A stretch of DNA of 64,000 bases from Nostoc sp. DedSLP01 (GCA_034530875.2 JAVRCJ020000013.1:144608-208607), one strand, 5' to 3'; shown: positions 24,001-30,000, counted from the stretch's first letter. Made by a program: the numbers.

Positions 24001-27000
24001 TAGATTGAGATTGCTATTATTGCTGTTAGCAGATACCGTAATCGAAGGTTGGGCAAAAACAGGTTGCATACCAGCTAGAAGCAGTAATAAAGAAACTAAC
24101 TTCTGCTTAATGACCAATCTCATAGCCATTTTTCTCTATTGAGTTTTATTTGTTTGCACGGAAGTTAGTTGATGTGCAATTTTTTTCACCTTCACTTTTA
24201 GAGAAGTATAGTTAGATAGTAACCTCTGTCGATAACAGAGAAAAAGCGTAAATAAGGAAATTGCAGAGTGAGATTTTTTTCCAAGTTGCACATCACGCCA
24301 AGCCATAATAGGGATTTTGTAAGGCGTTGTCGAATTGAGGGATAATAACAACTCGATAAAATTTCTCTCCCTGCCTCCCGTGTACTCCCTACCCAAAAAC
24401 ACTCTGTCTAAATTCATCCCACAGTTCTTCAACACAAGGATTGTTAAAGATTGCAGCTATGCTTTCGTGATGTTTAGCCAGTTGAGGATCGGGGTAGCGT
24501 TGTTGGCTACCCCTACCATCATTTCTGAAATAATTATTGTGTTAAAAGTTAATTGTCAACAACAGTTAGATTAATTGTTGCATTGTAAGTGCCTGGGTCT
24601 TGAAGACTAGCTGGGGTATATTTGATAAATAGAGATTTCCCATTACTACCAACAGCGTTAGCTTGAGAAGTTGCATAGGTTAAGTCAGTACCACTAGCAA
24701 CAGTGAAATCTCCTGTGACAGGAGCAGATGCAGTACCGTCAACCACTTTTACTTGATAGGGGATGGAAGTTGCTGAGTCAGAGTTGGTTAAATTTCCTGA
24801 GCTAGCAGTTAATGTGTAACCTGTAGAGTTGTTGGTATCGATAGCAAGGTCAGCCACTTCCACGATTGCCTCGCTAGGGGTGGTCAAGTCGAGGTTATTA
24901 GCTCCAGCCGTAGCGGTAGCTGAAATCTCCAATGTAGAAGCAACTGTACCTGAAATTGGCACAGTAGCCGTGGTGCCTGCAAAAGCAGCAGGTACGAAGG
25001 CAGCACTAGCACCGAAAACTAAGGCAGAAGCTAAAGCAAAATGTAATTTCATAAAACTCCTCCAAACATCAACACTGGACTTCTTTGCTAGTAGGTAGTT
25101 CCTTTTGGGTTTAGTTCCTTCTAGCGAATAAATTTATTATTTATGTTTTAAATCCAAAACATAATCGGGGAACCTGATGATTTTTTTTACTGATTATTTT
25201 GATAGTATTTACTGTTATTTATATTCGTAGTTGCATAAAAAATACTTAAGCGTCTATTCTCTAGCCTACGTAAGTTTGAGAAAAGACATATACTAATCGG
25301 ATTTGGCTCTTGGATGACTCATACAGTCAGAGAACAGGAAACTATTAACGGAGAGCAAAAGAAAAACCTTTAATCCTTACTATGTAAACGTTTGCTAAAA
25401 CCAAATTCTGAATTTAAAATATCGTATTGCTGGTTGCCCAACTCTAAGTAGTGAATTTCCATCGCAGCAAATCTACTGAAAATTCTTAGAGGCTTCTTAT
25501 GTACAATTGCTAGAAAAAAAAATCTCCTCACTTACTTTTTTCTGACTTTGACTTAATTCGATGATTAAAGCTTTCATACTTTTGTGGGTCTAGAACCGTA
25601 TGAAAATCTAAAATTTGGAGCAGAAAGTATCAGGAGCCACAAAGCACCCCATGTTTCATATATTTTTTAGTTGTCAGTCCCGAAATCAGCCCCCAGTTTT
25701 AATATGCTAAATTTGAAGCGGGATAGTACAAAGTTACAAAGCTATGGTTCAGGTTCTATATCCCTGACCGGTGCGCCTACCCTTGGTTTGAGCGTATGTC
25801 GCCGAGTACTTGAAGCTAGACCGTCGTTTGATTAGCTCAGTTGGCAGAGCAATCGACTCATAATCGATGTGTCGCAGGTTCGAGTCCTGTATCAAACACC
25901 AAAGGAAGTTAGCTCAATTGGAAGAGCGATCGACTCATAATCGATTTGTTGTAGGTTCGATTCCTATACTTTCACCCAACCCTGTCCGGGTTAAAAGACA
26001 CTACCCTGTAAAGGTAGCCAAATATGGTACGAATCCCAAAAGGTTCGAGACCCCCATTTTCTCAACTCTGCGGTGCAAGTGTTCTGCTGTCTTTCATCAC
26101 TCCCAAGGTGGTGTTTGATGGCTACAGTCAAGGAGCTAGCGCAACTGTTTTCTCTTTAACTTGAGTATGTCCCTTCGTTTTCCACAGTCGATTTCTCTAC
26201 GGAGATTTTGAATTGGCAAATAGAACGGCGTATTTGAGCGCAGTTATTTTTCTCCACATCGCTGGAGAAAGTAACAGCAATCTTAATCCAGTTCTGGAGA
26301 AACTTTTGCCCGCACCTCAACTGTAAACACTTGCATTAGCAGAGTAAAAAAATCTTTTCCTATGATGTACGGCGCAAATTTAACCACTACTCCACTAGCG
26401 ATTGAGGGTAATCTAGGAAGGTTGGAAAGTGACAAGTCAGGAATTTGGCGATCGCCTACTTTACCTGAATATTAAATATCACTGTAACCATAGCAATGCA
26501 AAGTTTGAGTTAGTGCCTGCTGGAGTTCAGAGTTAGCAGAATGTCTTAGTTGTTTTAAGACAGCGATAATTTCATCATCATTAGGGTAAATAAGTTGTCC
26601 GAGCTGTTTGACGTAATGAAGTTGGACAAAAGGTTTTTCATACGGCAGTTGTTGTATGACATACTGCTTGTAGCATTGTAGAAAGTGATTTTCAAAGCCC
26701 AATGCTTGCTGACACAAACTGCGTAAAAGTTCTCTAGAGTCGCTACTTTCTGGAACTAAATAAGCCCATTGCTTACAACAATACTCATATACTGATTCCA
26801 CTAGGAACGTCCATTCATCATTAATCCAAATGCGGTAAAATTCGGCGCAAACTCGTTTCCAACTGCCGCTACCAAAATAATTGCCAGTCTTAAGTAAAAT
26901 CAGTGCTTCTGCTGGAGAAAGAACATTAATGACTAAATCTTTGATGCCAATTTGAGTTGTGCGATCGCGCAGATACATCATGCGGCCATCATAACCATAA

Positions 27001-30000
27001 AACTCACCAACTGGTGAAGGATAGTCAAGAGGAAATGTTAAACAAGGAGGATTACCGCGTAACCGTGCAAACAAACGGTACTGTCCAAACATCGAGTCAC
27101 GGATATGGTCTTCAACAGGTTTTTTGGGAACGGCGAAGCGAATGTCTTCCCCATATATAAGCTTGCTGGCTGTTTGAAACCGCACCCCACCAACAGAAAA
27201 TAGATGTGCTTCATCAAGTGGAATCAGGTCTACTGCCAAGGCTGAATACCTTTCGCACTCTTGTTTAAAGGATGCAAATCGTTGTTTTTCTAAGAGAGTT
27301 TGTTGTTCCTTAAATACCACTACTATGTCGAGGTCGCTAGTTTCTACTGCCTCACCAACGGCATAACTGCCAACCAAATAGTAGCCACGAACTCTGCCAC
27401 AGAAAAAAGACTCGCCCAAATTAATAATTTCACAAATTATTTGGTCAATATCAGGGATATCACTTGAGTCAACAAGAGCAATATTAGTCATAGTGCTGAG
27501 GATAGTTACGATTGAGCTAAACACAGTAACAGCAATATCGATCGCTTCTACAGAAGCTTTTGCCCCCACACTAAACTGTAAACACCTGCGCTAGTAGTAT
27601 AATACTACAAGTGCTTAATGAACCCTTTAGTTTTTGTTTGTAGGTTTGTAAACTCTTATAAAGATAAAGGAAGTAGTATTTTAGACGGCTGCATCTAGAT
27701 TAATTCTATTTACTCCAGTACTTAAGCTGTAAGACAACGATTTAAATCACAGGTGGTATTTACTTTCAAGCAAGGTTATAAATGTCTTGATTAAATCTTC
27801 TTAGCTGGTTGTGTTAAGGTATCGCTCAAATTATCTATGCAAATTACTATGTGGGAAAAATTTTATATTAAACCTAACGAAATTGGTATCCTATACCATC
27901 GCAGCGACTTCAAGAAAATTTTAGAGCCTGGTACGCATACTTATTTTGGTCGTCATTGGCAAGTTAAAACCTACGACCTCAACCAGCCACAAGCTCAGAT
28001 TGAAAACCTAGAACTATTGTTACGGAATCATCAGGCTGAACTACAACAATATTTACTGATTGTCAGAACCGCATACAACCAAGCGGCTTTAGTACGCTGC
28101 GGTCAGAATTGGGTAAGCGTTGCACCAAATCAATTGGTGGCTTTTTGGCGTGGTTTTATTGAGGTAGAATCTTATCTCTTCAACTTAGAAGAAAGTTTAG
28201 AGTTGCCTAGTTCTTTTGTGCAGCAACTACGTAAAATCAGCTTGAATGGAGTGAAAAAGTTCCAAATTTCGGAGTCTGAGATTGGTTTACTGTACGTGCA
28301 AAATGATTTTGTCCGACCTCTAGAACCTGGAGAATATGCTTTTTGGTCAGTAGATCGGGATGTTTCTGTACGGACTCTCAGCCGAATTGTGCCTAACCCA
28401 GACTTTCCTCTAGAAGATGTCCTAATTGAAAAACATCCAGATTTTATTGCTGCTTACTGCCAAACAGTGCAATTACTGAATTGGCAAGTTGCAATTGTGC
28501 GGTATCGAGGTAAAGTGATTTCTATTTTGCCACCCACAAGCCGCAAGCTGTTTTGGCAAGGTGTTGAGGTAGAAGTTATTGACATCAGCACTGATGCTCA
28601 GTTAGAGCCTCGCTTAGTGGCTGAGTTGGTTGAGGGTTCAGCAGATGTGAAATTGCTTAGTCGCAACTGTTTGCATATATGCCAAGTACCCGCACAACAT
28701 ATCGGATTACTATACATTAATCAAGAGTTTCAAGGACAGCGATCGCCAGGTATACACGCTTGGTGGTTATTTGGACGCTCCTTTCAAACCGAAACCATCG
28801 ACTTGAGGCTGCAAAACATGGAAGTATCAGGTCAAGACATCCTTTCTAAGGATAAAGTACCTCTGCGGTTAAATTTGACAGCTGGCTTCCGCATCCTCGA
28901 TCCGTTGAGAGCAAAAAGCGGCTTGTCAGATATTGCCGGCTTCCTATACAAAGAATTACAATTTGCATTGCGTGGTGCGATCGGCGAACGCAACTTAGAC
29001 GCCTTATTAGAAGATAAAGGTGCAATTGACAGAAGTATATCTGAATATATCCGCCAGAAAACCGCAGACTATGGAATCGAAGTAGATTCTGTAGGCGTCA
29101 AAGATATAATTCTACCTGGCGAGATTAAGACAATCTTGAGCAAAGTAGTCGAAGCAGAAAAAGCTGCTCAAGCAAACGTAGTCAGACGCAGAGAAGAAAC
29201 CGCCGCCACCCGCAGTATGTTAAACACAGCTAAAGTAATGGAGGATAACCCGGTAGCCTTGCGTCTCAAAGAACTCGAAGTTTTAGAACGCATTGCAGAG
29301 AAAATCGATCGCATTCAAGTTAATGGTAGTTTGGATAATATTTTGACAGACTTAATTCGGATTAATGGGCAGTGATTTAGTCATTAAAGATTAAAACATA
29401 GGTATCAAGCCTGTTTTAGTTCTGTATTCTGAATTCTGCTATATCAACCGCTTTGAAGCATCCAAACTAAAAATCCTAGAATTTGTTCTACAGGCGGAAG
29501 AGGATAATCCATCAAGTCAATAGTGACAGTATTATCCTCTAACTTGAGGAATCGCCATTGCGTTCCACTGCTGATAGAACCATATATTACGGGAACTGGA
29601 CGATTTTTTGCGGCATTAAATCTTTGTGCTGCAACCATTTCTGCAATACATTGTCCAAAGCCTGTTCTTAAATCAGCTTTTTTTGCTTCCACAATCACAA
29701 TTGCAGGCGCTTCAATTTCTAAAACTTCAGGCGATCGGCTCAAAAGAAAATCACATATTCCATTAAGTCCAACTGATTCATCAACTGTAAAATCTTCTCC
29801 AGAGAATAAGCTAACTTGCCGATTTAATATCCGCCTAACTTCTAATAATACTGGGTAAATAATTCCTTCTGAACGAGCTTTCTCACTTGCTGAAGAAGCA
29901 AGAGGCAGACTTTCTTCAAGATATGCTCTCAGTGTGATAGATGCTTCAATACCTTCGATTACAGGAAGAAATCGCCCGCCTTCCTGTGTTTTTAATCCGA

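What a model noticed while it worked through the whole genome (the two positions that open the first line are those of the whole stretch)
25663..29375. A 650-nt structured RNA cassette with free-anticodon tRNA mimics in front of a vault-like slipin gene
The two 'tRNA-Met' rows at C13:170433-170585 are not housekeeping tRNAs. They are part of a ~650-nt non-coding cassette (structured 5' RNA, two tRNA mimics, a putative pseudoknot and hairpin module, two further structured modules) that precedes a Band-7 'slipin' gene whose fold matches major vault protein over most of its length. It suggests a bacterial vault-like RNP for translation stress.
Evidence so far: Matches that extend beyond the tRNAs in 17 of 40 Nostocaceae genomes; slipin follows within the flank in 13 of those 17; anticodons vary freely (cat, ttt, tgt, cgt, gat, cag, shortened loops) while arms are kept. 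In the reverse test, 6 of 6 slipin-bearing genomes carry the cassette. Compensatory changes in 8 of 18 pairs of the 5' module and 12 of 23 of a 3' module. Rfam finds only tRNA. The AF2 model hits MVP at E 5e-14 over about 590 columns. Contigs from 4 metatranscriptome studies cover only this stretch, three starting near the predicted +1. The PCC 7120 slipin alr0740 is TrcR-repressed 42-fold, in data that left out long ncRNAs (PMC10272220, passages, call 175).
(Added by a program. Inside this text positions count along the whole contig: contig position 144,608 is position 1 of the stretch shown here. "Call 12" and the like, gene names such as g00115 and contig names such as C1 are that model's own, and its searches are not shown. 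The text may have been shortened before it was handed on; [...] marks where a part breaks off. The agent that wrote the report below was given it as the finding of a first reader that could run no searches.)

Follow-up and report, generated by a model that had tools for sequence, protein, structure and literature searches.

The report
tRNA-mimic cassette with captured reverse transcriptase
This is a real cluster of structured, tRNA-like RNAs in front of a membrane-free cage protein; in close relatives it comes as two copies around a shortened retron reverse transcriptase that has lost its normal RNA and appears to dock on one of the tRNA mimics instead, but this genome keeps only scraps of that enzyme and of the second copy.

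Summary
The ~630-nt cassette is real. Its 5' module and 280-nt 3' rod show covariation. The 5' module and slipin co-occur in 62 of 151 family genomes, with 3 discordant. It extends the predicted Band-7/b7a-tRNA RNA-repair system.

In relatives the locus reads cassette A, N-truncated type XIII retron RT, cassette B, slipin (19 of 121 genus genomes, plus two other genera). That RT keeps its catalytic motifs (dN/dS 0.16-0.28), yet 25 of 27 such genomes lack any retron msr. Cassette B's tRNA mimic carries, as its anticodon arm, a hairpin matching msr stem-loop a: 27 of 28 post-RT cassettes, 4 of 99 others. The window has lost RT and B; 36 codons and about 70 nt remain around a one-off nucleotidyltransferase insertion.

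Corrections: anticodons vary across the family but are CAT in 69 of 80 genus units. The MVP match is weak (TM 0.29; stomatin scores better), although the repeats are predicted to pack side by side. TrcR boxes sit mainly at slipin's own promoter, downstream of the RNA. No binding or RT activity is shown.

The parts
25705..25713 (+). Extended -10 promoter of cassette A (TG-n-TAAATT); inferred +1 near 25719-25720
   Evidence: A similar element precedes the 5' module across the 87 distinct upstream regions printed; positions. A one-mismatch TrcR-like site lies at 25723-25730. Start site not mapped.
25719..25822 (+). 5' module (M5): interrupted stem capped by a T-arm-like and then a D-arm-like hairpin; YrlA-like order without the acceptor hairpin
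   Evidence: Covariation. Its model hits 64 of 151 family genomes and 31 of 61 non-cyanobacterial slipin loci at E<=1 (18 at E<=0.01), all on the slipin strand just upstream of slipin.
25826..25901 (+). tRNA-like unit 1 (CAT, A73, encoded CCA)
   Evidence: anticodon loop variable across the family.
25903..25978 (+). tRNA-like unit 2 (CAT, A1:A72 mismatch, C73, encoded CCA)
25978..26000 (+). H-type pseudoknot
   Evidence: Found at this place in 80 of 83 cassettes with alternative stems; window score reached by 4 of 300 shuffles.
26001..26053 (+). Anticodon-arm-like hairpin with a variable 7-nt loop, then a decayed elbow module (GG, short hairpin, T-arm)
   Evidence: Intact form in 18 of 83 cyanobacterial cassettes; a similar motif in 18 of 61 non-cyanobacterial loci.
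26065..26345 (+). 3' rod RNA (MOD): 18-bp closing stem, long interrupted rod, two apical hairpins; not an msr-msd
   Evidence: G-U 141 vs A-C 49 cells; its cDNA folds poorly (z -2.7 to +0.5) unlike native msd (z -5.5 to -5.8). Absent from 23 of 23 native RT loci and 22 of 22 more.
26365..26475 (+). 36-codon N-terminal remnant of the captured type XIII retron RT
   Evidence: 58% identical to the start of the intact 361-aa RT of L035, which scores 496 bits on PADLOC RT_XIII, next family 292.
26472..27491 (-). Pol-beta-fold nucleotidyltransferase (339 aa) inserted where RT and most of cassette B were lost; probably not part of the system
   Evidence: PF01909, MntA-like below cutoff, no RlaP family hit. 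In 1 of 121 genus genomes; the nearest named relative L095 has other DNA in this gap.
27525..27597 (+). 3' remnant of the rod RNA of cassette B
27593..27609 (+). Paired TrcR-like boxes over a -10 element: slipin's own promoter
   Evidence: One exact and one 1-mismatch site; an exact box follows the rod in 73 of 88 copies, 2.2 expected; motif from PMC10272220.
27837..29375 (+). Slipin, 512 aa: five SPFH1-like beta repeats, SPFH2 domain, long helix; no membrane segment
   Evidence: PF01145; model pLDDT 91.5.

Best explanation
The locus is a decayed copy of a two-cassette system: cassette A, RT, cassette B, slipin (shown by comparison). Each cassette is one precursor, probably cut at its tRNA-shaped units by RNase P/Z into separate RNAs (inferred). 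Slipin most likely forms a membrane-free ring whose repeat wall binds the rod-shaped RNAs. It would hold tRNA mimics as decoys or repair substrates when translation is attacked, with RtcB supplied from elsewhere in the genome (inferred from the b7a-tRNA prediction and the TrcR regulon). In several Nostocaceae lineages cassette B's tRNA mimic carries the type XIII msr stem-loop a in place of its anticodon arm (shown by sequence), so a type XIII RT can dock on it through region Y (inferred). Where a full-length retron is present the mimic would be a second ligand. In two RT lineages the enzyme has moved between the cassettes, lost about 125 N-terminal residues and its msr-msd, and is left with the mimic as its only recognisable partner. 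Because the catalytic motifs are kept, it most likely still copies RNA held in this particle, as a sensor or repair step (least certain step). In this window RT and B are gone, so only cassette A and slipin can work.
For: Architecture: A-RT-B in 19 of 19 full-length RT loci from 121 genus genomes, slipin visible in 18, and in 8 loci of two other genera, one with its 5' end outside the fetched stretch and one partly deleted. RT motifs: YxDD, PQGS and VTG in 27 of 27; 17 of 19 genus copies without a stop. Selection: dN/dS 0.28 (171 pairs) and median 0.16 (21 pairs); region Y has the lowest pN/pS, 0.17. Lost msr: msr 5' motif in 2 of 27 captured-RT genomes, both beside a second retron, against 17 of 19 genomes with a full-length RT. 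Hairpin: msr-like hairpin in 27 of 28 cassettes just behind an RT (the 28th has a compensatory change), 4 of 99 others, 0 of 74 own tRNAs, background 6 per Mb; its 13-nt core equals that of a native msr and persists where the D and T loops of the unit decay. Genome-wide: the B pattern is in 32 of 76 genomes with a type XIII RT and 5 of 275 without. Region Y binds an 8-bp msr stem with a 3-nt loop in Ec86 (PMC6868368, passages). b7a context: rtcB within 5 kb in 35 of 61 non-cyanobacterial slipin loci. One RNA-library contig bridges rod A, RT and the 5' module of B (weak).
Against: No binding, RT activity, cDNA product or transcript end was shown. The hairpin match was noticed after the fact, has about 8 independent positions, and kin are not independent. 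44 of 76 RT-bearing genomes lack the strict B pattern. RT and B are lost often: at least 10 truncated copies among 30 loci, and most cassette genomes have none. The captured RT evolves faster than native RTs (median dN/dS 0.07, partly saturated) and slipin (0.095). The B unit has no a1/a2 geometry or conserved branching G. That stem-loop a is the region-Y ligand in type XIII is extrapolated from Ec86/Ec73. rtcB is never beside slipin in the cyanobacterial loci (0 of 73). A single capture is unresolved (100/97; 93; unresolved, AU 0.86).
Confidence: 0.55

Rival explanations
1. Ordinary Band-7/b7a-tRNA RNA-repair cassette. The RT is a slowly decaying retron passenger that landed between two cassette copies, and the hairpin likeness is chance or a fossil.
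For: Frequent RT truncation and loss; long branches and raised dN/dS; the cassette is conserved without RT in most genomes.
Against: Two RT lineages only 57-59% identical keep the same position, the catalytic motifs and an invariant 13-nt hairpin core. Region Y is the most constrained part. The hairpin also tracks full-length RTs elsewhere in the genome.
Confidence: 0.22
2. The 280-nt rod next to the RT start is the template: its closing stem serves as a1/a2 and the RT makes msDNA from it, as a new retron.
For: The rod is closed by an 18-bp stem and ends 6-60 nt before the RT start in most copies; many A-type rods have a G two bases after the stem.
Against: The rod is conserved without RT and absent at 45 native RT loci. 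It is G-U rich and its cDNA folds poorly. It does not match a native msr-msd profile (best E 2.5). The G is missing in most of the second RT lineage.
Confidence: 0.1
3. The B mimic is an inhibitor or sink that holds type XIII RTs inactive. The captured RT then has a non-catalytic, RNA-binding role in the slipin particle.
For: B units occur with full-length retrons that have their own msr elsewhere; no priming geometry; the palm diverges faster than region Y.
Against: YxDD and PQGS are kept in 27 of 27 captured RTs, and motif A matches its pattern in 26 of 27.
Confidence: 0.1
4. In this genus the two CAT units are working, stress-induced tRNA-Met or tRNA-Ile2 genes, like those of the trn array.
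For: Normal tRNA scores, encoded CCA, CAT in 69 of 80 genus units.
Against: Loops of 5-8 nt and many anticodons outside the genus; unit 2 has A1:A72 and C73; fixed place inside a cassette. This rival can hold for unit 1 alongside the main reading.
Confidence: 0.15

Closest known systems
Band-7/SPFH + b7a-tRNA + RtcB RNA-repair system (Burroughs and Aravind 2016; paper not held, seen only as summarised in bioRxiv 10.1101/312249, passage)
   Same: Soluble Band-7 protein preceded by tRNA-like ncRNA. In non-cyanobacterial loci a tRNA-like unit lies within 800 nt in 51 of 59 and rtcB within 5 kb in 35 of 61.
   Different: rtcB is unlinked in cyanobacteria. The cassette has five or six RNA modules, a longer slipin (five repeats), a second paralogous cassette and a captured RT. 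I could not check how much of the extra RNA the 2016 paper or its supplement describes.
Type XIII (Mx162-like, clade 10) retrons (Mestre et al. 2020, PMC7736814, passages)
   Same: RT with NAxxH-type region X, YxDD and VTG region Y, nested among cyanobacterial type XIII RTs; msr stem-loop a sequence.
   Different: No N-terminal extension, no msr-msd in cis or, mostly, in the genome; the hairpin sits in a tRNA scaffold downstream of the RT; the neighbour is slipin.
Bacterial Y RNAs YrlA/YrlB with Rsr (PMC4201824 and bioRxiv 10.1101/312249, passages)
   Same: Several RNAs from one precursor; a permuted T-arm then D-arm module on a long stem; long rod RNAs that could tether a ring protein.
   Different: No Rfam YrlA match, no acceptor hairpin, no GNCGAA motif seen; this genome's Rsr lies on another contig with its own RNAs.
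Major vault protein and SPFH cages (stomatin, HflK/C, prohibitin)
   Same: Tandem beta repeats, SPFH domain, long helix; predicted side-by-side packing.
   Different: Closer to stomatin; TM 0.29 to MVP; C-terminal helices of 43 and 18 residues, far shorter than the vault cap helix (length recalled). bioRxiv 10.1101/872010 (part 1 of 3 read) describes bacterial MVP homologs at over 50% identity to eukaryotic MVP; slipin is 12-13% identical in the fold alignments.

Membership tests
Band-7/b7a-tRNA/RtcB system | Soluble Band-7 protein | tested here: met
   PF01145; no hydrophobic segment
Band-7/b7a-tRNA/RtcB system | tRNA-like ncRNA beside it | tested here: met
Band-7/b7a-tRNA/RtcB system | RtcB encoded adjacent | tested here: not met
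   rtcB is on another contig; 0 of 73 cyanobacterial vs 35 of 61 other loci. In PCC 7120 both genes are in the TrcR regulon.
Band-7/b7a-tRNA/RtcB system | Match to the published b7a-tRNA model | not testable with these tools
   Paper not held; no such Rfam family rang
Type XIII retron | RT with region X, YxDD, VTG | tested here: met
   In relatives; in the window only 36 codons remain
Type XIII retron | Extended N-terminus | tested here: not met
   About 125 residues missing in all captured RTs
Type XIII retron | Contiguous msr-msd (a1/a2, branching G, msd hairpin) | tested here: not met
   A profile from 10 native msr-msd finds none at captured loci; the 5' motif is absent from 25 of 27 genomes
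Type XIII retron | SWIM and ARM/WGR partner genes | not tested
   No room for them between the cassettes; not searched genome-wide
Type XIII retron | msDNA production | not testable with these tools
   Needs an experiment
YrlA Y RNA (5' module) | Rfam RF02553 match | tested here: not met
   No hit on the module in the window or 11 other loci
YrlA Y RNA (5' module) | T-arm, acceptor hairpin, D-arm order | tested here: inconclusive
   T-like (9-nt loop) then D-like hairpin supported; no acceptor hairpin
YrlA Y RNA (5' module) | Rsr within 4 kb | tested here: not met
   TROVE gene on another contig; 0 of 73 cyanobacterial loci
Major vault protein | SPFH shoulder domain | tested here: met
   (closer to stomatin, Z 17)
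Major vault protein | MVP-type tandem repeats | tested here: inconclusive
   E 3.7e-5, TM 0.17; Z 3.4, rmsd 6.7 over 82 residues; SPFH1 subdomains Z 4.0-4.6
Major vault protein | Long cap helix and cap ring | tested here: not met
   Helices 428-470 and 472-489 only; MVP cap length recalled
Major vault protein | Barrel assembly with bound RNA | not testable with these tools
   Only a predicted lateral self-contact
Decoding tRNA | Cloverleaf, 7-nt loop, CCA | tested here: met
   (window units)
Decoding tRNA | Anticodon conserved among orthologs | tested here: not met
   CAT in 12 of 36 units outside the genus, loops of 5-8 nt

The most novel reading that the evidence does not exclude
A retron reverse transcriptase has been domesticated into a stress ribonucleoprotein. 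It swapped its msr-msd for a tRNA mimic bearing the msr recognition hairpin and works on RNA held in a membrane-free SPFH barrel, linking retrons, tRNA mimicry, RNA repair and a vault-like cage in one bacterial system.
Probability: 0.35. Interest if true: 0.9.

Novelty: new variant of a known kind. Interest (0 to 1): 0.72.

Why it matters
It gives the unvalidated b7a-tRNA prediction a full RNA anatomy that reaches beyond cyanobacteria. It also supplies concrete test objects: a soluble SPFH protein predicted to pack like a barrel wall, and candidate RNA partners. The RT-hairpin link would be a retron enzyme re-targeted to a tRNA mimic, a natural case of moving the msr recognition element onto another RNA scaffold. 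I found no description of it in my searches, which cover open-access text only. This window itself holds only the reduced form.

Tried and rejected
1. 3' rod as msr-msd: my first reading after finding the RT; rejected.
2. Full-length RTs without msr in cis as true orphans: rejected. Three tested genomes hold an msr elsewhere, and 17 of 19 overall. BLAST-type searches for msr were insensitive, so I rely on the pattern search.
3. YrlA hit at 25850-25950: a tandem-tRNA artefact of the kind PMC4201824 warns of.
4. Nucleotidyltransferase as RlaP or a system member: no such family hit, opposite strand, one genome only.
5. The published TrcR direct-repeat pattern (PMC8421152) matched 0 of 88 post-rod and 0 of 87 promoter regions; only the 8-mer box was informative.
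6. RNase P, group I/II intron and HDV-like ribozyme resemblances of the rod: considered from memory, element order does not fit, no Rfam support.
7. The rod profile finds nothing in proteobacterial slipin loci, although structured-looking spacers are there; homology left open, no covariance model of the rod was built.
8. RNA runs: all 15 holders had shares of 0.05-0.07. Four were laid on relative L035, not on the window. Three soil studies gave contigs mainly on cassette A, beginning 10-18 nt after the inferred +1, one study with a few slipin pieces. One run covered 27 of 30 bins, so DNA may be in it; its very deep bin over cassette B cannot be interpreted.
9. One mis-placed row (L261) was ignored. 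Three pseudoknot calls were D-arm artefacts and were not counted.
10. Burroughs and Aravind 2016 could not be read; its text and supplement may already cover parts of the cassette. Supplements of the TrcR papers were not read.

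
Full report
OBSERVATION. ARAGORN and Rfam find two CAT tRNA-shaped units at 25826-25901 and 25903-25978, both with encoded CCA. They lie in a block 25694-26400 that matches beyond the tRNAs in 17 of 24 same-genus genomes. Alignments resolve, in order: an extended -10 element; a 5' module; the two units; an H-type pseudoknot; an anticodon-arm-like hairpin with a decayed elbow module; and a 280-nt rod closed by an 18-bp stem. 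Hand-drawn structures hold up. For the rod, 89% of cells pair and 34 of 63 pairs change on both sides, 0/500 shuffles, against 33-42% paired when slid. For the 5' module the figures are 85% and 17 of 26. The pseudoknot occurs in 80 of 83 cassettes with alternative stems. In one draw of 151 family genomes the 5' module model hits 64 and slipin 63; 62 have both. The model also hits 31 of 61 non-cyanobacterial slipin loci at E<=1 (18 at E<=0.01), always on the slipin strand just upstream of slipin. Anticodons are CAT in 69 of 80 A-type units in the genus (2 unparsed, 9 other) and 12 of 36 outside it.

WHAT WAS MISSED. In relatives the block runs into an ORF that is a reverse transcriptase, of type XIII by PADLOC (496 bits, next family 292). 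It has region X, YADD and VTG but lacks about 125 N-terminal residues. Among 121 genus genomes, 19 hold it full length, all between cassette A and a second cassette B; slipin is visible after B in 18. Ten further loci among the 30 fetched hold partial copies. Recombination between the two cassettes is the simplest cause of several of these (inferred from RT running straight into rod B). A second lineage with YVDD, 57-59% identical, has the same layout in two other genera. The window keeps 36 RT codons (26365-26475) and about 70 nt of rod B (27525-27597). Between them lies an opposite-strand nucleotidyltransferase found in 1 of 121 genomes.

IS THE RT ALIVE? 17 of 19 genus copies have no stop; dN/dS is 0.28 against 0.095 for slipin's N-terminal part. 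The YVDD lineage gives a median of 0.16, native RTs 0.07. YxDD, PQGS and VTG are present in 27 of 27. Region Y is the most constrained part (pN/pS 0.17) and is as close to native RTs as they are to each other, while the palm has drifted. The captured RTs nest among type XIII RTs; a single capture is compatible with the trees but not established.

WHICH RNA? Not the rod. It is conserved without RT, absent at 45 native RT loci and G-U rich, and its cDNA folds far worse than native msd. A profile of 10 native msr-msd finds nothing at captured loci. A pattern for the msr 5' end finds 2 of 27 captured-RT genomes, both beside a second retron, against 17 of 19 genomes with a full-length RT. Cassette B's single tRNA-like unit, however, has an 8-bp arm with a three-base loop whose 13-nt core equals msr stem-loop a of a native retron. 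A profile from native stem-loops scores it in 27 of 28 cassettes behind an RT (the 28th is a compensatory variant), 4 of 99 others and 0 of 74 own tRNAs, with 6 hits per Mb as background. The core persists where the D and T loops of the unit have decayed. In 351 family genomes the B pattern occurs in 32 of 76 with a type XIII RT and 5 of 275 without. Of the 5, three have RT remnants or a contig-edge piece, one is 68% complete and one lies outside a cassette. One of the 32 is not a hairpin. In several genomes B goes with a full-length retron elsewhere. Region Y of Ec86 binds an 8-bp msr stem with a 3-base loop (PMC6868368, passages). The match was noticed after the fact and kin inflate the counts. 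It recurs in eight genera of the family draw (nine counting the non-hairpin hit) and in one genome of another family.

SLIPIN. The model (pLDDT 91.5) shows five beta repeats, an SPFH domain and two helices, with no membrane segment. Stomatin is the best match; MVP gives E 5e-13 over 583 columns but TM 0.29 and Z 11-12 over about 240 residues. The repeats alone match MVP at E 3.7e-5, TM 0.17 and SPFH1 subdomains at Z 4.0-4.6, all middling. Three copies of the repeat region are predicted to pack side by side through two different faces (0.51 against best control 0.23; 20 of 30 solved pairs and 1 of 23 single chains reach that mark, roughly applicable; contacts agree at least 79%; pLDDT at least 85). 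So 'vault-like' is a fair analogy of architecture, not membership.

REGULATION AND EXPRESSION. alr0739, alr0740 and rtcB are TrcR-repressed in PCC 7120 (PMC10272220, passages) and rise under translation inhibitors (same paper; PMC9938897 and PMC8421152, passages). The exact 8-mer box follows the rod in 73 of 88 copies (2.2 expected) but occurs around the cassette promoter in 7 of 87 (2.1 expected). The published data therefore most likely concern slipin's own promoter, at 27593-27609 here. RNA-library contigs laid on a relative cover mainly cassette A in three soil studies, and one contig from a fourth study bridges rod A, RT and the start of B. These are weak hints only.

MECHANISM AND RIVALS. 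Shown: anatomy, co-occurrence, loss of msr, hairpin identity, selection on the RT. Inferred: precursor processing, slipin-RNA particle, decoy or repair role with RtcB in trans, RT docking on B, RT catalysis. Overall confidence 0.55. Rivals: passenger RT (0.22), charged CAT tRNAs (0.15, partly compatible), rod as template (0.10), non-catalytic RT (0.10).

KNOWN OR NEW. The tRNA-like RNA beside Band-7 and RtcB is predicted in print (bioRxiv 10.1101/312249, passage; the 2016 source was not held). A Pseudomonas SPFH gene in the rtc locus is noted in PMC13086221 (passage). Searches for b7a-tRNA, slipin/RtcB/vault, retron with SPFH, type XIII in Nostoc, SPFH with RtcB, RT with tRNA-like and RNA repair and orphan retrons returned no listing that describes the full cassette, its duplication or the RT-hairpin link; most of those hits were seen as listings only. 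Verdict: a new variant of a known kind, interest 0.72. The window is the reduced form, and experiments belong in a relative with the intact locus.

Noticed in passing
L093 (G000:C2), about 700-1300, upstream of the TROVE/Rsr gene: Two or three tandem tRNA-shaped RNAs whose anticodon arm is replaced by a roughly 60-nt insert with a repeated motif containing a GNCGAA-like Rsr site: apparently unpermuted Y-RNA-like units.
   Followed up: no
L094 (G000:C64), upstream of rtcB: A palindromic pair of TrcR-like boxes before the genome's only rtcB.
   Followed up: no
window 30245-34954 (+): A 294-aa orphan followed by a 1267-aa DEAD-box helicase with a C-terminal HIRAN domain; recalls Hachiman-type defence pairs (recalled, untested).
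   Followed up: no
window 20183-25052 (-): Four genes (840, 251, 155, 167 aa) that read like an usher, a chaperone and two pilin-like subunits (recalled; the 167-aa protein had no Pfam hit).
   Followed up: no
L111: Three 5' modules with tRNA-like units in tandem before one slipin in a distant cyanobacterium.
   Followed up: no
L113, L124, L127, L128, L133, L145, L147, L162, L168, L169: In Proteobacteria the slipin cassette often sits at the end of a long tRNA array, linking it to stress tRNA operons.
   Followed up: no
L143-L147, L150, L154, L162, L166-L168, between the last tRNA-like unit and slipin: A conserved betaproteobacterial structured spacer with shared 5' and 3' motifs; may be the counterpart of the rod RNA.
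   Followed up: partly
L081, L083, L242, L243; L236, L241, L255: A YdeI/OmdA gene (the alr0739 type) or a RidA-family gene lies between the cassette and slipin in some genera.
   Followed up: partly
L031:3921-6476: The RT's N-terminal half is fused in frame to a piece of a ProA-like anti-phage protein; slipin is not in the fetched stretch.
   Followed up: no
L288 (G496), about 1504: A B-type msr-like hairpin far from that genome's slipin cassette.
   Followed up: no
L316 (G464): A full-length type XIII RT lies 2 kb from, and divergent to, a cassette with a B unit, while its msr is on another contig: a possible stage before capture.
   Followed up: partly
L099: A record titled Acetobacteraceae MAG carries a Nostoc-like locus (slipin 89% identical); probably a mis-binned contig.
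   Followed up: no
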